A program made the position numbers and the translations under genes. A stretch of DNA of 64,000 nt, taken from an uncultured Ignavibacteriaceae bacterium. GTDB lineage: Bacteria; Bacteroidota; Ignavibacteria; UBA10030. How positions within the stretch are numbered: position 1 is the first letter of the stretch; every line of letters begins with the position of its first letter. Where the stretch lies: positions 48,584 to 112,583 of the forward strand of contig CAYZRX010000001.1 in NCBI GenBank assembly GCA_964480945.1. Direction: 5' to 3'. Of this stretch, positions 44,697-52,595 are shown one piece after another. A model generated the notes under the pieces. It saw nothing but the letters and a program-made list of their open reading frames with translations, ran no database searches and was not told the origin of the DNA.

Positions 44697-47570
44697 ATGT
44701 CTGAAGAGAAGCTCATCGTTAAGGGCGCGCGGGTCCACAATCTCAAGAACATCGATGTTGAGATGCCCCGTGATCGCTTCATCGTCATCACGGGCCTTTC
44801 CGGCTCGGGGAAGTCGAGCCTTGCGTTCGATACGATCTACGCCGAGGGGCAGCGTCGGTATGTGGAGAGCCTGTCGGCCTACGCCCGCCAGTTCCTCGGA
44901 TTGATGGAGCGCCCCGATGTCGATTATATCGAAGGCCTGAGCCCCTCCATCTCGATTGAGCAGAAGACGGTCAGCACGAACCCCCGCTCGACGGTCGGGA
45001 CGGTGACGGAGATCTACGATTTTCTCCGCCTCCTGTTCGCACGCGTGGGCGTGCAATTCTGCTACAACTGCGGCCGGAAGGTCCAGCGGCAAACGGTCGA
45101 TCAGATCATCAATTCCATCCTCCAATATCCGTCAGGCGCCAAACTCCAAATCCTGGCCCCCGTCATCAAGGGGCGCAAGGGGCACTATCGCGAGCTGTTC
45201 GAGCAAGTCTTGAAAGATGGCTTCGTACGGGTTCGAGTGGACGGCCAGGTGAAAGAGATCAAAGAGGGGATGAAGGTCGACCGGTACAAGGTCCACAACA
45301 TCGAGATCGTCGTCGATCGCATCGCGGTCAAGAAGGATGCTCGCTCGCGTATTGCGGAGTCGGTCGAGGTGGCGCTCCGGTACGGGAACGGAGCCCTTAT
45401 TGTCAACGATGGCGAGAAGGACCAACTCTTCAGCAGTCACTACGCCTGTCACGTGTGCGGAATCAGCTACGAGGAGCCTGCTCCGAGCTCGTTCTCTTTC
45501 AATTCTCCGGCCGGTTCGTGCCCGGAGTGCGAAGGGCTCGGTGAGAAGAAGGCTTTCGACCTCCGATTGATCATTCCGGATGAGAGCCTCAGCATCAACC
45601 GGGAGGGGCTCGCTCCGCTCGGCAAACCCCGTCCCACGTGGATGTTCAGTCAATTGAAGGCCGTAGCGAAGCGCTACGCGTTCGACTTCGATACGCCGCT
45701 GAGGAGCTTGCCGTCCCGCGCGAAGGAGGTGCTTCTCCAGGGCGCGGGGGATGAGAAATTCGATATCGAGTATCTGCAGAGCAGCGGGAGGGCGGTCGTC
45801 TACAAGCATCGGTTCGGCGGGGTGCTGGATATGCTCAAGCGTTTCTACGATGAGACGAGCTCGAACAACATCCGCGAATGGGTCGAATCGTTCATGAGTA
45901 CCTCCCGTTGCGAATCATGCGCGGGAGGGAGGCTGCGAAAGGAAAGTCTCGCCATCAAGCTCGAGGATGTCGCCAGCGGCAAGCTCTACAACATTCACGA
46001 TGTTGTCTCGCTCTCGATTCGGGCTGCCCGGCAGTTCTTTGCAGCTTTGTCTCTTACCCCGCGGCAGACGGAGATCGCACGCCAGATTTTGAAGGAGATC
46101 GTTCAACGATTGGACTTTTTGCTCAACGTCGGACTGGATTACCTCACGCTCGATCGGTCGGCCCGCACACTTTCGGGAGGAGAGGGGCAGCGCATCCGTC
46201 TGGCGACCCAGATCGGCACTCAGCTCGTCGGCGTGCTGTACATCCTCGACGAGCCGAGCATCGGTCTGCACCAGAGGGACAACATCAAGCTCATCCGTTC
46301 GCTGAAATCGTTGAGGGATCTCGGCAACACGATCATCGTCGTCGAGCACGACAAGGAGACGATCCAGAGCGCCGACTATGTGATCGACCTTGGGCCCGGC
46401 GCGGGCGAGCACGGCGGGCATGTGGTAACGTACGGAAAACCGAATGAGTTGAAAATTCAAAATGAAAAGTTGAAGGTTAAGGGGAACGGATTCGGTGGGC
46501 AGTCGCATACGGCGCTCTACCTCAAGGGGAAGAAGAAGATCGAGGTACCGTCCGCACGAAGAGAGGGAAATGGGAAGTGGCTCGTCCTCTCCGGAGCTGC
46601 CGGCAACAATCTCAAGAAGATGACGGTCAAGATCCCGCTCGGCCGTTTCGTCTGCGTCACCGGTGTGAGCGGTTCCGGCAAATCCACCCTTATCAACGAA
46701 ACGCTCTATCCGATCCTCTCGAACAAATTCTACAAGACCAGGGCGGTACCGTTGCCGTATCAATCCATCAAAGGACTCGATCAGATCGATAAGGTCATCG
46801 ATATCGATCAATCCCCGATCGGCAGGACGCCGCGGTCGAATCCCTCGACCTACACCGGCGTCTTCACGCATATCCGCGATCTCTTCACCCAGCTGCCGGA
46901 AGCGAAGATTCGCGGCTACAAAGCGGGGCGATTCAGCTTCAACGTGAAGGGGGGCCGTTGTGAGGAATGTGAGGGAGACGGTGTCCGGAAGATCGAGATG
47001 AACTTCCTCCCGGACGTCTACGTGCTCTGCGATGTCTGCAAGGGGAAGCGGTACAATCGTGAGACGCTCGAGGTCCACTTCAAGGGGAAGTCCATCGCCG
47101 ACGTGCTCGATATGACTGTCGAGGACGCGATGGGACTCTTCAGCGAGCAGCCGCGCATCCAACGGTATCTGCAGACGCTGCACGAGGTCGGCCTCGGCTA
47201 CATCCGGCTGGGACAACAAGCGACCACGCTCTCCGGCGGTGAGGCGCAACGCGTCAAGCTCTCGACGGAGCTTTCGAAAGTAGGGACCGGAAAGACGCTC
47301 TATATTCTCGATGAACCGACGACGGGGCTGCACTTCGAGGACATCCGCATGCTCCTCTCCGTGCTCAACAAACTCGTCGACAAGGGGAACACCGTCATCG
47401 TCATCGAGCACAATCTGGATGTCGTTAAGACGGCCGACTGGATCATCGATTTGGGGCCCGAAGGTGGGGATGAAGGAGGGGAGATCGTTGCGGAGGGGAT
47501 GCCGGAGGAGGTGGCAAAGCATCCGAGGTCATATACCGGCTTGTTCCTGAGAAGGGAAATCAGCCCCTAG
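44697..47570 (+). CDS. uvrA: Excinuclease ABC subunit A
   Basis: [45 protein letters not shown], zinc fingers. Confidence 0.98.
46446..46480. repeat. Heptamer tract in frame within uvrA
   Basis: GAGTTGA AAATTCA AAATGAA AAGTTGA AGGTTAA; AT-rich patch in a GC-rich gene, encoding [12 protein letters not shown]. Confidence 0.65.
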
Positions 47571-47634
47571 CACCGTATTCATATTCTGCAGGCCGTGTAC
47601 CCCCTTTTTCCATTCCGCAACTGCCGATCTGCAA

Positions 47635-48273
47635 TCACCTCGAAACCCACTCGTTTCCCTTCACAAAGAACCGCCAGCGCTTCTCGCCTCCGTTCGTAAC
47701 GCCAATCCGGGTGGAGCGTCCGATCCTCGATTCTGGGATCGTTTCGCCTTTTAGCAGATAGATCGTGTTGCCGACCAAGTCTGTCCCGTTCTGCTCTCGC
47801 GAGATGCCGAACGCCTGGCAGAACTTCGCCGGGCCGTTCGTGAGGTTGAAGAGGAATTGGTGAGTGGTTTGCGCCAGAGGCGCATCCGCCTTCGGCGGAA
47901 ATTGGTGAATGGTCGGGTGGTGGGTGGGGAATCGATTCTTCATCATCACTTCAATCCCCTTGATCGGCTCGACCGCGCGGATGAGCGCCGCCTCGCCGAT
48001 CCCCTCTTTCCTCGTGACGACGTTCGCGCAGAAATGCATCCCGTAGGTGAAGTACACGTAAAGGTGGCCGCCCTTCGAGTACATCACCTCATTCCGCTTC
48101 GTCCTGCCCCGGAACGTGTGCGATGCCGGGTCGCCTTCGCGGTACGCTTCGGCTTCGACGATCCTGCCGATAAGCCTTCGACCCCGATGTCGGCAGACGA
48201 TGAATTTTCCAAGAAGGTCTCGTGCGACCTCGAGGGTTGGGCGGAGGTAGAAGGAGCGGGAAAGCTTGGACAT
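47635..48273 (-). CDS. mpg: DNA-3-methyladenine glycosylase (MPG/AAG family)
   Basis: VARDLLGK, IVEAEAY, YVYFTYGMH, LIRAVEP, LTNGPAK, RIGV; start moved to ATG 48273. Confidence 0.93.
   Translation of the reverse strand: MSKLSRSFYLRPTLEVARDLLGKFIVCRHRGRRLIGRIVEAEAYREGDPASHTFRGRTKRNEVMYSKGGHLYVYFTYGMHFCANVVTRKEGIGEAALIRAVEPIKGIEVMMKNRFPTHHPTIHQFPPKADAPLAQTTHQFLFNLTNGPAKFCQAFGISREQNGTDLVGNTIYLLKGETIPESRIGRSTRIGVTNGGEKRWRFFVKGNEWVSR
47870..47899. mobile_element. 30-nt double-hairpin micro-insertion, copy 1 (in frame in mpg)
   Basis: TGCGCCAGAGGCGCATCCGCCTTCGGCGGA flanked by GGTT and AATTGGTGAAT; mobility inferred, not shown. Confidence 0.65.
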
Positions 48274-48282
48274 CGTTAGTTT

Positions 48283-48310
48283 TCGGTTGTCAATTGCCGA
48301 TTGTCGATCT
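48283..48310. repeat. Heptamer tract just upstream of the mpg start
   Basis: TCGGTTG TCAATTG CCGATTG TCGATCT. Confidence 0.65.
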
Positions 48311-48462
48311 GAGGGAGGTGAGGCCGAACGATCTGAGCCGCCTCCTGTGATCTTGAATGTAGAAGTTATTGGAGTGAGTTTCAATCACGAGCGCCGACCT
48401 CCCAACGCAGCCCTTTCGATCGAGCTTGTTTCTTTCTCTTTCGTCCTCTATTTTCCAGGAGC

Positions 48463-49227
48463 ATGAAACGGAAACTCAAATGGCGCCTCGAGTCGACCAG
48501 GAGTGAGATCCTCTACGAAGATGATCATCTCGTGGTCCTCAACAAGCCGGCAAATCTGCTCGTCCTGCCCGACCGATACAATGTGAAGCTCCCGAATCTC
48601 TACGGAATCTTTAGCGAAGAACTCGGCAAGATCTTCGTCGTCCATCGTCTCGACAAGGAGACGAGCGGTCTCATCGTCTTCGCAAAGACGGCAGAGGCGC
48701 ACGCAGCTCTCAGTGAACAATTTGAGGGAAGGAGGGTGGAAAAGGTTTATGAAGCTCTCGTTGTCGGCGTCCCTGCGGATTCGGAGGGGACAATCGATCT
48801 CCCGCTTGGCGAAAGAACGCGCGACCGGGGGGTCGTTAAGGTGGATCGTAAGGCGGGAAAACGCTCGGTGACACGGTACAAGGTCCTCGAGCAGTTCAAC
48901 GGCTTCGCGCACCTTGAGGCGCGGCCAGCGACCGGGCGGACGCATCAGATCCGCGTGCATCTTCAGGCGATCGGAATGCCGATCCTTGCTGACAGGTTGT
49001 ACGGAGATGGGAGGGGGTTCTATCTGTCGCGTGTCAAACCGGGCTACAAGATACAGGGGGAGGAGAAGCCGTTGCTCGACCGCGCCGCCCTGCACGCTGC
49101 TTCGATCTCCTTTGACCATCCCGCTACCGGGGAGCGCATGACGTTCTCAGCCCCGTTGCCCAAGGACATGAGTTCGGTCCTGAAATATCTCAGGAAATTT
49201 AAAGCGCTGGAGCCGTTAGCACATTAA
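48463..49227 (+). CDS. RluA-family pseudouridine synthase
   Basis: VLNKP, VHRLDKETSG, TGRTHQIRVHL, LHA. Confidence 0.94.
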   Translation: MKRKLKWRLESTRSEILYEDDHLVVLNKPANLLVLPDRYNVKLPNLYGIFSEELGKIFVVHRLDKETSGLIVFAKTAEAHAALSEQFEGRRVEKVYEALVVGVPADSEGTIDLPLGERTRDRGVVKVDRKAGKRSVTRYKVLEQFNGFAHLEARPATGRTHQIRVHLQAIGMPILADRLYGDGRGFYLSRVKPGYKIQGEEKPLLDRAALHAASISFDHPATGERMTFSAPLPKDMSSVLKYLRKFKALEPLAH

Positions 49228-49266
49228 AGCGGAAGGAGGAGGGCTTTTCTGGGCGACTGCGGTTAC

Positions 49267-50325
49267 TCAGAAGAGTGTCTCTTGGTCTGAAGGCTTCCGT
49301 GTGAGTCCGAAATGCTTGTAGGCGACGGCCGTTGCCTCGCGGCCTCGTGGCGTTCGCTTCAGAAACCCCTCCTGAATGAGGTAAGGTTCGTACACTTCCT
49401 CTATCGTCCCGGGCTCTTCACCCACCGCGACCGCGAGCGTGTTCAATCCCACCGGCCCTCCGCTGTACTTGTCGATGATGGCCCGCAGAATCCGCTTGTC
49501 CATTTCATCCAGCCCGTGGTCGTCGACTTCGAGCGCCCGAAGGGAGTACTGCGCAACCTCCTTCGTTACGACCCCACGATGGTCCGCGAGTTTGCGGTCC
49601 GCCTGAGCAAAATCCCGGCAGCGTTTCAAGAGGCGATTCGCGATGCGGGGGGTTCCCCGCGCGCGCCCGGCGATCTCTGCGGCAGCCTCGTCGGTTGTCC
49701 CTATCTCCAGGATCTTCGCCGATCGCCGCACAATCGTTCGCAGCTGATCGACGTTGTAGTAGTCGAGTCGGTTGGAGATGCCGAAGCGCGAGCGCAGGGG
49801 GGCGCTGAGAAGGCCGGCCCGCGTGGTTGCACCCACTAGCGTGAAGGGCTCAAGATTGAGCGAGATCGTCTTCGCGCCGGGCCCGCTGTCGATGATGATG
49901 TCGACGCGGAATTCCTCCATCGCTGAGTAGAGGTACTCTTCGATCTTTACCGGCACCCGGTGGATCTCATCGATGAACAGCACCTCCCCCTTCTCGAGCG
50001 AAGTCAAAATCCCCGCGAGGTCCCCCGGTTTCTCCAGCGCAGGTCCGGACGTGACCTTGATTCCAACGCCCATCTCGTTCGCGATGATGAACGCCAGCGT
50101 CGTTTTGCCCAGACCGGGCGGTCCAGTCAGGAGAACGTGATCGAGAGGTTCGTTCCGGCCCTTTGCCGCAGAGATGAAGATCCGGAGGTTGTCGACGATC
50201 TTCCCCTGTCCGACGAACTCCTCGAGTCGGGCCGGACGGAGCGTCTGATCGAGCTCCAGTTCATTGTCGAGTCGCTCGGGCGATGTGAACCCGCGATCTC
50301 GTTCGCTTGCGTCCGTTTTCTTCAT
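49267..50325 (-). CDS. ruvB: Holliday junction helicase RuvB
   Basis: [49 protein letters not shown]. Confidence 0.97.
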
Positions 50326-50419
50326 ACGGCGACAAAGTACCAAGAAGGGGAGTGACTTTCAACCGCGCTAAAGCAGAGCGAAGATGGCTTCGGACTGTCC
50401 TCGAAGGGGGAATTCGGGT

Positions 50420-51031
50420 TCATCTCGGGCTTGTGTATCGAAGTGCTCTCTTGATGAGATCCTGAAGTGAGATCCCGGTTCCTGCGGACTCATTCAATAC
50501 CTGGCGTATGGCTTTCTCCGCAACCTGACGGTTGTAGCCGAGCGAGGTGAGGGCGAGGAGGGCCTCCTGCCGAATTCCCGCCTCCTGGTCCGCCGGGCCC
50601 ATCGCAGCAGACGACACCTGCTCCGCCAATTTGCCGACCTTGTCGCGCAGTTCGATGATGAGCCGCTCTGCGGTCTTCTTGCCCACGCCCGGGATCGCAG
50701 TGAGGGCGGCGAGGTCTCCCTTCGCGATATGCGATTTCATGTCAGCGACCGAGATGCCCGAGAGTATCCCTTGGGCGATCTTCGGCCCGATTCCGCTCAC
50801 GGAAATGAGCAGCTTGAACAGGAATCGTTCCTCCTCGGTTGCGAAGCCGTAGAGCTGGAGTGCGTCCTCGCGCACGTGAAGGTAGGTGAAGAGCGTGACG
50901 TGGGCGTTGAGATCCCCGAGTTTCTCAAACGTCGAGAGAGGGATAAGGACGCCGTAGCCGACTCCATTCACATCGACGAGGATTTCCGTCGGCGTCTTGA
51001 CTCTCAGAATGCCGCTCAATGAGGCGATCAT
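50420..51031 (-). CDS. ruvA: Holliday junction binding protein RuvA
   Basis: VNGVGY, VREDALQLYGF, VSGIGPK, IPGVGKKTAER, ALTSLGY. Confidence 0.96.
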   Translation of the reverse strand: MIASLSGILRVKTPTEILVDVNGVGYGVLIPLSTFEKLGDLNAHVTLFTYLHVREDALQLYGFATEEERFLFKLLISVSGIGPKIAQGILSGISVADMKSHIAKGDLAALTAIPGVGKKTAERLIIELRDKVGKLAEQVSSAAMGPADQEAGIRQEALLALTSLGYNRQVAEKAIRQVLNESAGTGISLQDLIKRALRYTSPR

Positions 51032-51600
51032 CGGGACTTCCTGATACGTTCGGGATGTGATTCAATGAACGACTTCCAGTCGGCCATGGTCTTCTTTGAA
51101 CCGGGTTTCCCCTTGTGAGACTTGCCATCCCCGTGGCTTCGCTGGTAGTGACAGATGGCGACGGCCAGCGCATCTGTTGCATCATAGTATTTTGGAGGGG
51201 CTTTGAGCTTCAGGATGGACTGCACCATATAACTGACCTGCTCTTTTGAGGCTCCCCCGTTTCCAACGACGGCCCGCTTAACCTCTCGGGGTGAGTACTC
51301 CGCCGTCGGGATTTCGCGGTTCACGGCTGCCAGAATGGAAACGCCGCGGGCGTGACCGAGCTTCATGGCGGACTGTGCGTTCTTGCCGTAGAACGCCGTC
51401 TCAATGGCAAACTCGTCGGGGTGGAACCGATCGATCACCCTGCACAGTGTCGCGTAGATAGCTCTCAGACGGAGAGGCATCCTCTGATCGCCCCGGTTCT
51501 TGACGACGTCGAACTCAAGCACCTTCAACTTGCCGCTCTTGGCTTCGATGACTCCATATCCGGTCGTGAGAGTTCCGGGGTCGACGCCGAGAATGATCAT
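51028..51600 (-). CDS. ruvC: Crossover junction endodeoxyribonuclease RuvC
   Basis: MIILGVDPG, AIETAFY, KLGHARG, DATDALAVAICH; start moved to ATG 51600. Confidence 0.96.
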   Translation of the reverse strand: MIILGVDPGTLTTGYGVIEAKSGKLKVLEFDVVKNRGDQRMPLRLRAIYATLCRVIDRFHPDEFAIETAFYGKNAQSAMKLGHARGVSILAAVNREIPTAEYSPREVKRAVVGNGGASKEQVSYMVQSILKLKAPPKYYDATDALAVAICHYQRSHGDGKSHKGKPGSKKTMADWKSFIESHPERIRKSR

Positions 51601-51602
51601 CT

Positions 51603-51672
51603 GGTTAATTGGTGAATGGTCAATTGGTGAGTGGTTGATTGGTGAATGGTTAATTGGTGAGTGGTTAGTTGG
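51603..51672. repeat. 15-mer tandem repeat (GGTYRATTGGTGART x4 plus a partial unit)
   Basis: GGTTAATTGGTGAAT GGTCAATTGGTGAGT GGTTGATTGGTGAAT GGTTAATTGGTGAGT GGTTAGTTGG. Confidence 0.85.
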
Positions 51673-51696
51673 CAAAAGCTAAACTGATGAATGGTT

Positions 51697-51726
51697 TGGG
51701 CCAAAGGCCCATCCGCCTCCGGCGGA
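51697..51726. mobile_element. 30-nt double-hairpin micro-insertion, copy 2
   Basis: TGGGCCAAAGGCCCATCCGCCTCCGGCGGA flanked by GGTT and AATTGGTGAGT; mobility inferred. Confidence 0.65.
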
Positions 51727-51772
51727 AATTGGTGAGTGGCGTATACGTCAGTTTGAGGATTTTGAGCCTCAT

Positions 51773-51828
51773 AGCCAATTAACTAATTAACTAGTTAACC
51801 AGTTAACGAGTTGACTCGTCAACCAGAC
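51773..51828. repeat. Degenerate octamer tandem tract
   Basis: AGCCAATT AACTAATT AACTAGTT AACCAGTT AACGAGTT GACTCGTC AACCAGAC. Confidence 0.8.
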
Positions 51829-51842
51829 AGCCCTTCACTCTC

Positions 51843-52595
51843 TCATCCCGCGCTGAAGCTCGCCATAACGCTTTCGTCGATATCGAAGTTGCTGTACACG
51901 TGTTGGACATCATCGTGCTCTTCCAGAGCTTCCATGAGCTTCAGGAGGACCTCCGCGTCTTTTCCTTCCACCTTCACCGTATTTTCGGGGATCATCTGGA
52001 GCTCGGCGTGCTCCATCGGAATTTCCCGTTGCTCGACGGCCTTCTTGACGGCTTCGAACGACTCCGGCGTCGTCGTGATCACGTAATGCTCCTCCTCGGT
52101 TGTCATGTCGTCAGCGCCAGCTTCCAGAATGATCTCCAGGAGGACGTCTTCGGCTACTTTGTTCTTCGGAACCGTGATCTGACCTTTCTTATGGAACTGG
52201 TACGCCACCGCGCCGGTCGCGGCGAGCTTTCCGTGATTGCGATCCAACACGTGGCGAAGTTCCGAAACGGTGCGTGTCTTATTGTCCGTCACCGTCTCGA
52301 CCAATATCGCGGCGCCTCCGGGACCGTAGATCTCGTAAGTCACATCTTCGTACGCCATTCCCGGCAGCTCGCCTGTGCCCTTCATGATCGCCCGCTTGAT
52401 ATTGTCCGCAGGCATGTTGTTGGCTTTCGCCTTCTCGATCGCAAGGCGAAGCCGGGGGTTTCCGCCCGGATCGCCGCCGCTGAGCCGGGCAGCAATTGTA
52501 ATCTCCTTGATGATCTGGGTGAACATCTTGCCGCGCCGTGCATCCGTGACGGCCTTCTTGCGGCGGATCTGATGCCATTTTGAATGACCAGACAT
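51843..52595 (-). CDS. yebC: YebC/PmpR family protein
   Basis: MSGHSKW, NPRLRLA, YGPGG, TDNKTRT, DDVQHVYSN; upstream of ruvC. Confidence 0.96.
   Translation of the reverse strand: MSGHSKWHQIRRKKAVTDARRGKMFTQIIKEITIAARLSGGDPGGNPRLRLAIEKAKANNMPADNIKRAIMKGTGELPGMAYEDVTYEIYGPGGAAILVETVTDNKTRTVSELRHVLDRNHGKLAATGAVAYQFHKKGQITVPKNKVAEDVLLEIILEAGADDMTTEEEHYVITTTPESFEAVKKAVEQREIPMEHAELQMIPENTVKVEGKDAEVLLKLMEALEEHDDVQHVYSNFDIDESVMASFSAG

What the first reader, a model, noticed from the sequence alone, without database searches (positions are those of the whole stretch)
47853..47929. 30-nt double-hairpin at a fixed site of a 15-mer repeat, in frame in mpg, with a covarying second copy
Seen: copy 1 is GGTT[TGCGCC-AGA-GGCGCA-TCCGCC-TTC-GGCGGA]AATTGGTGAAT. 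Copy 2 at 51697 is GGTT[TGGGCC-AAA-GGCCCA-TCCGCC-TCC-GGCGGA]AATTGGTGAGT. The four differences are one compensatory pair (C-G to G-C) and two loop bases. Removing the 30 nt restores GGTTAATTGGTGART, the empty unit tandemly repeated at 51603-51662. No target duplication is visible. In mpg the composite adds roughly PTHHPTIHQFPPKADAPLAQTTHQF to a loop. Inference: a minimal structure-selected, possibly site-specific, non-autonomous element that creates new peptide sequence, analogous to but far smaller than Rickettsia palindromic elements. Alternatively, repeat and hairpin were copied together as one unit.
Basis: partly seen in the sequence, partly recalled or inferred. Interest (0 to 1): 0.82.

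Follow-up and report, generated by a model that had tools for sequence, protein, structure and literature searches.

The report
Tiny mobile double-hairpin DNA element
The 30-base double hairpin inside the DNA-repair gene mpg is one copy of a very small, apparently mobile DNA element that occurs in many unrelated bacterial groups and can add ten amino acids to proteins without breaking them.

Summary
Two 30-nt double hairpins (DH) lie at window 47870-47899 (in frame in mpg) and 51697-51726 (upstream of ruvC). Each sits between TT and AA of a 15-mer repeat, and they differ by one compensatory pair.

They are not a two-copy curiosity. A covariance model finds 38 places in this genome. The pattern occurs in 27 of 41 relatives (0-28 copies; reversed control 0) and in at least 119 contigs of Patescibacteria, Omnitrophota, Kiritimatiellae, Gammaproteobacteria and others.

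- **Empty sites:** a same-genus genome with no DH has the empty mpg site. A second filled/empty pair lies in a tRNA-like T-loop.
- **Target:** insertion is precise, without duplication, at TTY|RAA. This explains the 15-mer site, tRNA loops and the NPF|NP motif of two T9SS sorting domains in this genome.
- **In genes:** 24 of 26 copies in long open frames elsewhere read S-A-x-G-G-S-A-x-G-G, and copies carrying a stop codon are depleted there, so the element is probably translated.
- **Mobilising enzyme:** unknown. DH copies flank small free-standing GIY-YIG nuclease genes next to tRNA genes in several phyla. No DH-flanked Y1 transposase gene was found.

No Rfam family matched, and five full-text searches found no description.

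The parts
47870..47899 (-). Double hairpin copy 1 (DH1). The canonical orientation TCCGCC-GAA-GGCGGA + TGCGCC-TCT-GGCGCA is on the minus strand, which is the mpg sense strand. It is translated in frame 2 as (F)PPKADAPLA(Q).
   Evidence: CM 48.8 bits, E 9e-10
47855..47869 (+). 15-mer repeat unit AATTGGTGAGTGGTT immediately 5' (plus strand) of DH1. It ends in the TT of the target.
   Evidence: The same unit is present, without the hairpin, in the G002 ortholog.
47900..47914 (+). 15-mer repeat unit AATTGGTGAATGGTC immediately 3' of DH1. It begins with the AA of the target. It is followed at 47915-47929 by a degenerate G-rich unit.
47635..48273 (-). mpg (3-methyladenine/methylpurine DNA glycosylase) coding sequence, counted from the Met that aligns with the orthologs. 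The repeat plus hairpin lie in a hypervariable, low-confidence loop (residues about 115-141).
   Evidence: AlphaFold2 model: pLDDT below 50 at residues 118-128 and 130-136.
51697..51726 (-). Double hairpin copy 2 (DH2): TCCGCC-GGA-GGCGGA + TGGGCC-TTT-GGCCCA on the minus strand, in the yebC-ruvC spacer.
   Evidence: 47.0 bits, E 3e-9
51607..51666 (+). Four tandem empty 15-mer units directly upstream of the ruvC start. Two more diverged units flank DH2 at 51682-51696 and 51727-51741.
   Evidence: In three congeners the spacer is only about 80 nt, with ATTCAC-type short repeats and no hairpin.
51028..51600 (-). ruvC coding sequence from MIILGVDPG. The mechanical ORF call runs on through the 15-mer array as HSPIN repeats, which is probably not translated.

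Best explanation
The 30-nt sequence is a copy of a dispersed, very small, non-autonomous mobile element, called DH here. A DH is two abutting 15-nt hairpins, T-SSGCC-NRA-GGCSS-A followed by its inverted partner with loop TYN, so both strands look alike.

SHOWN:
- It is multi-copy in this genome and in many unrelated phyla, with genome-specific subfamilies.
- Its stems covary.
- It is inserted precisely, without target duplication, at TTY|RAA.
- Related genomes hold the empty sites.
- Inside genes it stays in frame.

In mpg it entered the TT|AA of a pre-existing 15-mer repeat in a disordered surface loop.

INFERRED:
- The mpg copy is translated as ten extra residues. It is not spliced out.
- New copies arise by insertion of a copy at single-strand-prone or hairpin-loop TTY|RAA sites. 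These include tRNA T-, D- and anticodon-loop DNA, loops of other hairpins, AT-rich short tandem repeats, and Phe-Asn/Lys/Glu codon junctions.
- Enzyme: my best guess (about 0.35) is that the small free-standing GIY-YIG nucleases mobilise it, whether by cleavage and copy-repair (homing-like) or by integration. Their tRNA-linked gene cassettes carry a DH at their junctions. A Y1/HUH transposase acting on single-stranded hairpins is the main alternative (about 0.2).
For: **Copy number and controls.** There are 21 perfect adjacent double hairpins on 16 contigs. The loose pattern gives 32 hits, of which I kept 28. Model R1 finds 38 distinct places at E <= 1e-3. The pattern with up to 1 mismatch occurs in 27 of 41 relatives, and the reversed control gives 0 in all 41.

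**Distribution.**
- 15 of 301 genomes of the phylum. Apart from G000 these are 13 of 31 in its order, 1 of 42 in the rest of the class, and 0 of 227 in other classes.
- About 24 copies in a 0.4-Mb Patescibacteria bin and about 64 in a Kiritimatiellae genome, each with its own dominant loops.

**Covariation.** At the four positions the search pattern left free, 237 of 250 cells form Watson-Crick pairs. The shuffle mean is 153 and the maximum 169 in 2000 shuffles. On 46 hand-picked copies, 29 cells change on both sides and 0 of 500 shuffles reach the score.

**Filled versus empty sites.**
- mpg: G000 filled, G002 and G003 empty; G002 has 0 DH genome-wide.
- tRNA-like T-loop: GGGGTC|GAACC filled in G000:C61, empty in G002:C68.
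- A REP-like hairpin beside one gene in G016, empty on one side and filled on the other.

**Target.** Flank base counts in 123 sites: L-2 is T in 104, L-1 is T or C in 104, R+1 is A or G in 99, R+2 is A in 90.

**Boundaries.** Contigs from other contexts in metagenome runs diverge at 47868-47870 and 47899-47903.

**Coding copies.**
- mpg, plus two T9SS sorting domains in G000 reading NPF|SARGGSAFGG|NP.
- PheT of a Campbellbacteria genome with two copies.
- 26 of 125 sites elsewhere lie in long open frames, 24 of them in frame 1.
- After in-silico removal 28 junctions lie in long open frames, and only 2 of those elements carry a stop, although 47 of 125 elements have a frame-1 stop.

**GIY-YIG link.**
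- G000:C23 has DH - GIY-YIG - DH.
- The same design is seen in G006, G016, G028, G009 and the Patescibacteria genome G044.
- In 119 unrelated loci, 6 of 8 GIY-YIG ORFs lie 0-177 nt from the DH.
Against: - No transposition event, intermediate or polymorphic allele was seen. Contigs of four runs showed no joint skipping the 30 nt.
- The number of GIY-YIG genes does not track the number of DH copies in 41 relatives: G002 has 7 genes and 0 DH, G032 has 23 and 0.
- Some GIY-YIG cassettes carry other hairpins or none obvious at their junctions.
- The link could therefore be indirect. The cassettes duplicate tRNA loops, and those loops contain the TTCGAA target.
- Only about 5% of DH sites are next to a GIY-YIG gene.
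- For the three copies with 15-mer flanks, co-copying of repeat and hairpin by recombination is not excluded.
- Translation of the mpg insert is inferred from open frames and stop depletion only. There are no RNA or protein data.
- The 28 retained copies and the 38 places rest on my own cut-offs, and only 150 of 3953 first-look candidates were scored.
- Most source genomes are metagenome bins.
Confidence: 0.8

Rival explanations
1. The element is mobilised by a Y1/HUH tyrosine transposase (IS200/IS605 or RAYT-like) that binds the two hairpins on single-stranded DNA. It would excise or copy the element and insert it 3' of TTY without duplication. On this view the DH is a minimal left-end plus right-end derivative (PATE/REP-like).
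For: - Hairpins with 3-nt loops, no target duplication, a short sequence-defined target and a preference for single-strand-prone sites all fit this chemistry (knowledge of IS608 is recalled).
- Y1_Tnp genes are numerous: 35 of 41 relatives, 9 matches in G000, and 4 of 5 DH-bearing genomes of other phyla, including 0.7-0.9 Mb Patescibacteria genomes.
- One DH lies 125 nt from a Y1_Tnp gene in G016.
Against: - None of the 8 G000 Y1_Tnp loci examined is flanked by a DH. One (C57) has its own, different REP-like hairpins.
- In G016 the DH sits inside the loop of that gene's own flanking hairpin, as a passenger.
- Genomes with many Y1_Tnp genes have no DH: G002 has 8, G007 has 12.
- G044 has about 24 DH and no Y1_Tnp match, though it is an incomplete bin.
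- There are no guide or linker bases between the hairpin feet and the element ends, which IS608-type cleavage needs (recalled).
Confidence: 0.2
2. For the window copies specifically, the hairpin did not insert on its own. A block consisting of 15-mer unit, hairpin and 15-mer unit was copied between 15-mer arrays by recombination, gene conversion or slippage.
For: - The mpg copy and the copy on contig C86 are identical over 43 nt, including 4 + 9 flanking bases.
- All three copies in a 15-mer context sit at the same TT|AA of the unit.
- The 15-mer arrays are clearly unstable. The ruvC spacer is about 245 nt here against about 80 nt in congeners, and mpg has 18 nt of extra repeat beside the hairpin.
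Against: - The flanks are repeat units that would be identical under either model.
- DH2 differs from DH1 in stem and loops, so it is not a recent copy of the same block.
- 25 of the 28 retained genomic copies have unrelated flanks.
- The G002 mpg gene carries the 15-mer without a hairpin.
Confidence: 0.15
3. The double hairpin is primarily a functional cis-element kept by selection for the host or for the GIY-YIG cassettes. It could be a transcription or RNA-processing insulator, a nuclease or recombinase site, or a replication-related cruciform. Copies inside genes would then be by-products.
For: - Extreme conservation of one stem (TCCGCC/GGCGGA) across phyla, with strictly compensatory change in the other.
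- Two-fold symmetry, so that either strand or transcript gives the same structure.
- Regular position within tens of bases of both ends of GIY-YIG genes and next to tRNA genes.
Against: - No U-tract follows the hairpins. The 3' flank is A-rich, so it is not a classical terminator.
- Copy number varies from 0 to 28 among close relatives.
- Occurrence inside essential genes such as PheT.
- No Rfam family matched.
- Copies show no consistent position relative to gene ends: the intergenic G000 copies lie between tandem, convergent and divergent gene pairs.
Confidence: 0.1

Closest known systems
Rickettsia palindromic elements (RPE)
   Same: Palindromic, non-autonomous, dispersed, and found inserted in frame in genes that stay functional, where they add peptide segments. 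I read this in background passages of PMC3733652.
   Different: RPEs are several times longer (about 100-150 bp, recalled) and carry a CGTC tag at one end (PMC3733652 passage). As far as I recall they are confined to Rickettsia and relatives. The DH is 30 nt, has no such tag, and occurs across phyla.
Small dispersed repeats (SDR) of Nostocaceae: Elhai et al. [quoted passage not shown]
   Same: Mobile-looking repeats under 30 nt. From recall, they are embedded in short tandem heptamer repeats and in hairpins, with nested insertions. This is the same picture as the DH in a 15-mer (7+8) tandem repeat, in hairpin loops, and with expanded loops.
   Different: The paper itself is not held. I saw only a citation in PMC3116915 and one sentence in PMC5861425 saying that SDR-like repeats were found only in Nostocaceae. 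The sequences are different. I recall no report of in-frame protein insertions, cross-phylum spread or a nuclease link for SDRs.
REP / REPIN elements with RAYT transposases
   Same: Short GC-rich extragenic palindromes, dispersed, sometimes inside repair genes, and thought to be mobilised as single-stranded hairpins (PMC3733652 passages; PMC3116915).
   Different: REPs have a GTAG (or CGTC) tag and flank their RAYT gene. The DH has neither. A REPIN is two inverted REPs forming one long hairpin, whereas the DH is two abutting short hairpins. Loop positions 8 and 23 are often not complementary in the listed copies, so there is no sign of selection for a single long hairpin.
Mitochondrial double-hairpin elements and GC clusters (Allomyces, yeasts, other fungi)
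   Same: Small GC-rich elements folding into two hairpins in AT-rich DNA, considered mobile and sometimes inside genes. The name and concept are recalled (Paquin et al. 2000). For papers using the term I saw only search listings and abstract starts.
   Different: These are organelle genomes of eukaryotes with unrelated sequences. I recall no link to tRNA loops or GIY-YIG cassettes being described. Membership was not tested.
Free-standing GIY-YIG homing endonucleases (for example phage T4 SegB in the tRNA gene cluster)
   Same: A small nuclease gene that sits among tRNA genes and promotes the copying of itself and flanking DNA by cleaving the recipient. I saw only the listing and the start of the abstract of PMC2330249. 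This resembles the tRNA-linked GIY-YIG cassettes that carry a DH at their junctions.
   Different: No hairpin element is known to me as part of Seg-type homing. The proteins here are about 85-105 aa and consist of the nuclease domain only. Activity was not tested.

Membership tests
REP / REPIN (RAYT-mobilised) | GTAG (or CGTC) tetranucleotide tag at one end of the palindrome | tested here: not met
   All 46 aligned copies begin T-C-C-G-C-C and end G-G-C-N-N-A. The flanks are TTY and RAA. No GTAG or CGTC occurs at either end.
REP / REPIN (RAYT-mobilised) | Copies flank a cognate Y1 (RAYT) transposase gene | tested here: not met
   None of the 8 G000 Y1_Tnp loci examined has a DH within 900 nt. 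The one adjacency, in G016, is a DH nested in another hairpin.
MITE | Terminal inverted repeats plus a target-site duplication | tested here: not met
   The two hairpins are inverted copies of each other with nothing between them. No duplication is present at any of the filled/empty pairs.
IS200/IS605-type non-autonomous element (PATE) | Subterminal hairpins, insertion next to a short specific sequence without duplication, and a Y1 transposase acting in trans | tested here: inconclusive
   No duplication and a TTY target fit. Y1 genes are common, but their presence does not track the DH.
Rickettsia palindromic elements | Element of about 100-150 bp with a CGTC tag, inserted in frame in genes | tested here: not met
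   The in-frame feature is met. Size and tag are not met.
Small dispersed repeats (Elhai 2008) | Sequence identity with SDR1-8 of Nostocaceae | not testable with these tools
   The paper and its sequences are not held.
CRISPR array | Regularly spaced identical repeats separated by unrelated spacers | tested here: not met
   The only regular array (G000:C26, period 61-62 nt) has spacers that resemble each other and are copies of the tRNA-Leu 3' end.
Intrinsic terminator | GC-rich hairpin followed by a T-run | tested here: not met
   The 3' flank is A-rich (R+2 is A in 90 of 123 sites) and the 5' flank is T-rich.
Any Rfam family | Match to a curated covariance model | tested here: not met
   cmscan of window 47500-52000 at E <= 10 gave two unrelated weak hits elsewhere and none on either copy.
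Integron attC / gene cassette | Imperfect palindrome following each promoterless cassette ORF, next to an integron integrase | not tested
   Tandem [GIY-YIG gene + DH] units look cassette-like. No integrase search was done, and the DH has no R/L box layout as I recall attC.

The most novel reading that the evidence does not exclude
The double hairpin is the cis-acting end or attachment structure of a so far unrecognised class of ultra-small selfish cassettes. These are driven by free-standing, domain-only GIY-YIG nucleases that cut DNA at TTY|RAA in hairpin loops. tRNA T-, D- and anticodon loops are their natural homes, and the cassette restores the tRNA with a copied piece. Solo 30-nt hairpins are the minimal cargo-free form of these cassettes. 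They have spread horizontally between phyla that share anoxic sediment and groundwater habitats, and they seed proteins with flexible ten-residue linkers (SAxGGSAxGG).
Probability: 0.3. Interest if true: 0.88.

Novelty: new variant of a known kind. Interest (0 to 1): 0.78.

Why it matters
If this holds, it is among the smallest mobile elements known, and it crosses phylum boundaries.

- **Test system:** its size and defined target (TTY|RAA) make it a simple system for asking how sub-100-nt repeats move. That question has stayed open for REP-like and SDR-like repeats.
- **Annotation:** it explains recurrent odd peptides (SAxGGSAxGG, PPxADxPxA) and hypervariable loops in proteins of uncultured bacteria. 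It also explains breaks in assemblies at these sites and spurious small ORFs.
- **GIY-YIG proteins:** the link with tRNA-associated GIY-YIG mini-cassettes gives a testable function to a large family of nuclease-domain-only proteins of unknown role.
- **mpg:** the insert is a tolerated decoration of a disordered loop, not a new domain.

Tried and rejected
**Ideas tested and dropped**
- **Three-way junction.** I thought the flanks pair to form an outer stem. Flank complementarity is not above a composition-matched control: mean 2.96 against 2.78 +- 0.10 pairs in 8 positions, and run length 0.74 against 0.84. The apparent stems are T-arms and other host hairpins that were invaded.
- **CRISPR-like array at C26.** Rejected; the spacers are tRNA-Leu 3' end copies.
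- **Interrupted tRNA genes (intron-like).** After in-silico removal, 0 of 125 sites restore a tRNA call.
- **Phage vehicle.** Only 14 stretches in the viral contig collection.
- **Unbiased neighbour clustering.** 965 ORFs within 1.5 kb of a DH in 119 loci gave no large family. The largest cluster covered 5 loci, and the GIY-YIG clusters covered 4 and 2 loci.
- **Gene counts against DH counts.** No correlation for Y1_Tnp or for GIY-YIG.

**Sequencing runs**
- No RNA holder was listed.
- Contigs of 4 runs were laid. There was no joint across the 30 nt. One contig (X5 record 23) bridges the filled site with 0 differences.

**Literature**
- Five searches found no description.
- Three searches were for analogues.
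- The Elhai 2008 paper is not held.
- Supplements were not opened, and those of PMC3733652 list REP families that I could not check.

**Technical failures**
- A fuzzy-regex scan timed out.
- A hairpin scan was swamped by N runs and was redone.
- Alignment A3 used window coordinates that were 3 nt off and was redone as A4.
- The 46 sequences of A4 were picked by me from about 150 and favour perfectly paired copies. The unbiased count is.

**Rows dropped**
- 4 of the 32 hits (C19, C32, C64:22732, C68), because fewer than 22 of 30 bases were identical to the consensus.
Full report
**1. What is in the window**

The 30-nt cores are at 47870-47899 and 51697-51726. Each core lies between the TT and the AA of a 15-mer unit AATTGGTGARTGGTT. 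That unit occurs 8 times in the window against 0.15 expected by chance.

On either strand, as single-stranded DNA, the minimum-energy fold is exactly two abutting hairpins of 6 bp with 3-nt loops (z -3.0 to -4.1). The copies differ by one compensatory pair and one base per loop.

Copy 1 lies in the mpg ORF (Pur_DNA_glyco, E 4e-64). Copy 2 lies in the yebC-ruvC spacer, next to four tandem empty units that abut the ruvC start.

**2. It is a family, not a pair**

- **Perfect copies.** A scan of the 3.91-Mb assembly (149 contigs) finds 21 perfect adjacent double hairpins on 16 contigs.
- **Loose pattern.** This gives 32 hits. I kept 28, dropping 4 that had fewer than 22 of 30 bases matching the consensus.
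- **Covariance model.** A model built from 46 copies finds 38 distinct places at E <= 1e-3. Of these, 28 are exactly 30 nt and 10 have one loop expanded to give 36-74 nt. Only 150 of 3953 first-look candidates were scored, so this is a lower bound.
- **Flanks.** Only three copies (the two in the window and one on C86) have 15-mer flanks.

In canonical orientation the element reads TCCGCC-NRA-GGCGGA followed by T-S-M-GCC-TYN-GGC-K-S-A. The second hairpin is the inverted partner of the first, so the element looks the same on both strands. In this orientation both window copies lie on the minus strand, the sense strand of mpg.

**3. Distribution**

- **Relatives.** With up to one mismatch the pattern is found in 27 of 41 relatives, at 0-28 copies. 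The pattern read backwards gives 0 in all 41.
- **Phylum.** In 301 genomes sampled from the phylum it is found (exact pattern) in 15. These are G000, 13 of 31 other genomes of its order, 1 of 42 of the rest of the class, and 0 of 227 of other classes.
- **Other phyla.** By record title, most are Patescibacteria (Kaiser-, Lipton-, Campbell-, Saccharibacteria and others). Others are Omnitrophota, Kiritimatiellae, Lentisphaerae, Verrucomicrobiota, Zixibacteria, Gammaproteobacteria, Desulfotomaculaceae and Ignavibacteria.
- **Density.** A 0.4-Mb Patescibacteria bin has about 24 copies and a Kiritimatiellae genome about 64. Each has its own dominant loop pair, as expected from bursts within a genome.
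- **Viral contigs.** Only 14 stretches.

**4. Structure is under selection**

The scan pattern left four stem positions free. In the 125 copies it retrieved, 237 of 250 cells are Watson-Crick, against a shuffle mean of 153 and a maximum of 169 in 2000 shuffles. Ten stem variants occur (TCCGCC, TCAGCC, TCTGCC, TGCGCC, TGAGCC and others).

On 46 copies that I picked (37 distinct), the formal count gives 100% paired cells and 29 cells changed on both sides. 0 of 500 shuffles reach the covariation score, and sliding the partners drops pairing to 20-43%. That set favours perfect copies, so one search is the unbiased figure.

The third base of loop 1 is almost always A and the first base of loop 2 almost always T. 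The middle loop bases (positions 8 and 23) are often not complementary in the listed copies (for example AAA/TCT and GAA/TCT). This points to the two-hairpin form, not one long hairpin.

**5. Insertion, target and boundaries**

*Empty and filled sites.* Same-genus genome G002 (mpg 74% identical) reads ...CAC CAA TC|A ACC ACT CAC CAA TCG.... That is about one and a half 15-mer units and no hairpin. G000 has 48 nt more: the 30-nt element plus 18 nt of repeat. G002 has no copy anywhere.

A second pair comes from a tRNA-like unit beside a GIY-YIG gene. It reads GGGGTC|GAACC in G002:C68, and carries a 36-nt variant at exactly that point in two copies on G000:C61.

A third pair lies within G016. A REP-like hairpin on one side of a Y1_Tnp gene is intact. 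Its copy on the other side has the element in its loop.

*Target.* The flanks of 123 sites give the consensus TTY|RAA: L-2 is T in 104, L-1 is T or C in 104, R+1 is A or G in 99, and R+2 is A in 90. There is no duplication.

*Boundaries.* In metagenome contigs, sequences from other contexts diverge from the window at 47868-47870 and 47899-47903. This marks the same boundaries independently.

**6. Why tRNA, T9SS tails and the 15-mer**

The T-loop of tRNA genes (GGTTC|GAATCC) is a perfect target.

- **tRNA proximity in G000.** 9 of the 32 listed hits lie within 528 nt of one of the 39 tRNA genes, and 7 lie within 150 nt.
- **tRNA-Leu array.** On C26, three tandem 61-62-nt copies of the tRNA-Leu 3' end each carry the element between GTTC and GAGT. 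Their T-stems changed in a compensatory way.
- **Other genomes.** 10 of 125 sites lie within 300 nt of a tRNA gene. None interrupts a complete tRNA.
- **T9SS tails.** Two G000 proteins with T9SS C-terminal sorting domains (FlgD_ig/Por_Secre_tail) read ...NPF|SARGGSAFGG|NP.... The same site is filled in an Ignavibacteriaceae genome (L046). The codons TTY|AAY of Phe-Asn are the target.
- **15-mer.** The unit offers GGTT|AATT. Its left side, GAGTGGTT, is identical to the tRNA-Ser D-loop site that carries the element on C23 and in G016. This may or may not be chance.

**7. In genes it is read through**

In other genomes, 26 of 125 sites lie in frames open for at least 60 codons on both sides. Of these, 24 are in frame 1, giving S-A-x-G-G-S-A-x-G-G. 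PheT of a Campbellbacteria genome has two such copies.

After removing the element in silico, 28 junctions lie in long open frames, and the element carries a stop in only 2 of them. Yet 47 of 125 elements have a stop in frame 1. Depletion of stop-bearing variants inside genes argues that the insert is translated and not removed from the RNA.

In mpg the frame is the rarer frame 2 (PPKADAPLA), as at one other site (L019). The AlphaFold2 model (mean pLDDT 82.9) has pLDDT below 50 exactly at residues 118-128 and 130-136, between two helices. In 11 relatives that stretch is variable in length and sequence.

**8. Who moves it**

*Y1_Tnp (IS200/RAYT-like).* These genes are common (35 of 41 relatives). 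None of the 8 G000 loci examined is flanked by the element, and gene counts do not track it.

*Small GIY-YIG genes.* These give a positional signal.
- On G000:C23 one gene (Pfam GIY-YIG, E 2e-15) lies between two copies, next to tRNA-Ser.
- On C61 two gene fragments lie beside the 36-nt variant.
- The layout tRNA loop, copied tRNA piece, GIY-YIG gene and element at the junction recurs in G006, G016, G028, G009 and a Patescibacteria genome.
- In the 119 unrelated loci, a profile built here finds 8 GIY-YIG ORFs. Six of them lie 0-177 nt from the element, where about 14% would be expected within 500 nt by position alone.

*Against a simple link.*
- All 41 relatives have such genes, including those without the element.
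- Other cassettes carry different hairpins of the same design: a mini version TCCC-GAA-GGGA/TCCC-TTT-GGGA in G024, a single hairpin in G007, and none obvious in G032.

I therefore rate the GIY-YIG assignment at about 0.35. It is an inference, not a result.

**9. Comparison with what is known**

The element works like Rickettsia palindromic elements (in-frame, palindromic). From recall, it also works like the 21-27-nt small dispersed repeats of Nostoc, which sit in heptamer repeats and hairpins. It fails the tests for REP/REPIN (no GTAG or CGTC tag, not flanking a RAYT), MITE (no duplication), terminator, CRISPR and every Rfam family.

Full-text searches found no description. They used the stem words, the peptides, and terms such as 'palindromic', 'hairpin' and 'Candidate Phyla Radiation'. 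Subscription papers and supplements were not searched.

**10. Verdict**

What moves the element is open.

Noticed in passing
G000:C23:48500-48900 (locus L170): A tRNA gene is followed directly by a small GIY-YIG gene and then a repeat of the tRNA 3' end. The T-loop of that repeat (GGTTC|AATCC) holds a different, longer double hairpin (TCCCTCAAGAAACCC...GGGTTTCTTGAGGGA + TCCCCTTGGGAGA). The design is the same as the DH but the sequence differs.
   Followed up: partly
G032:C2:365054-369130 and G007:C9:1492217-1494256 (relatives; loci L181, L182): Tandem arrays of at least 14 and at least 8 near-identical small GIY-YIG genes with a period of about 300 nt. The units are separated by copies of a tRNA half whose anticodon arm is replaced or altered. 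Neither genome holds the TCCGCC-type double hairpin.
   Followed up: partly
window 47858-47905 compared with G000:C23:45040-45100 and locus L177: The insertion site in the 15-mer (GAGTGGTT|AATTGG) closely matches the tRNA-Ser D-loop site that carries the element next to a GIY-YIG gene (GAGTGGTT|GAATCGG). The 15-mer may act as a pseudo-target, or the match may be chance.
   Followed up: no
window 51770-51830: A second low-complexity stretch in the yebC-ruvC spacer, made of TTAAC/TTAAT-type octamers (ccaattaactaattaactagttaaccagttaacgagttgactcgtcaacc), partly palindromic. It is absent from the short spacers of three congeners.
   Followed up: partly
G000 genome-wide: Other over-represented 6-bp/3-nt hairpins of the form T-stem-loop-stem-A: TCTCCT-AAG-AGGAGA (5 copies), TCCCCT-CTT-AGGGGA (4), CGAAGG-AGT-CCTTCG (5), AACCTT-CCG-AAGGTT (4). 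The genome holds 1495 perfect hairpins of this size against about 955 expected naively.
   Followed up: no
G000:C57:1058-1827: A Y1_Tnp (RAYT-like) gene is flanked on both sides by its own 24-nt hairpin GGGACAAACATTCTTGTTTGTCCC. This is a classical REP/RAYT-type arrangement unrelated to the double hairpin.
   Followed up: no
G000:C6:78781-78830; also C31:24070, C16:50470, C6:26676, C17:33063, C34:22799: Copies of the double hairpin in which one loop is expanded by 6-44 nt. In C6 the insert is itself another small hairpin (CCGAAGGGGTCCCTCGG type). Small hairpin elements appear to nest in each other's loops.
   Followed up: partly
G000:C144:1400-1640, C37:14666-14690; locus L021 6246-6662: A further widespread hairpin repeat of the GTCATCCTGAGCGAAG / CTTCGCTCAGGATGAC type lies near GIY-YIG genes and double hairpins. 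It gives spurious ORFs with peptides such as HPERSEE and LRSGQA in several phyla.
   Followed up: no
G000:C23:44566-44665 and C144:1311-1410: Runs of 100 N lie directly beside a double hairpin and beside a GIY-YIG gene. These are probably scaffold gaps where assembly broke at these repeats, so copy numbers are lower bounds.
   Followed up: no
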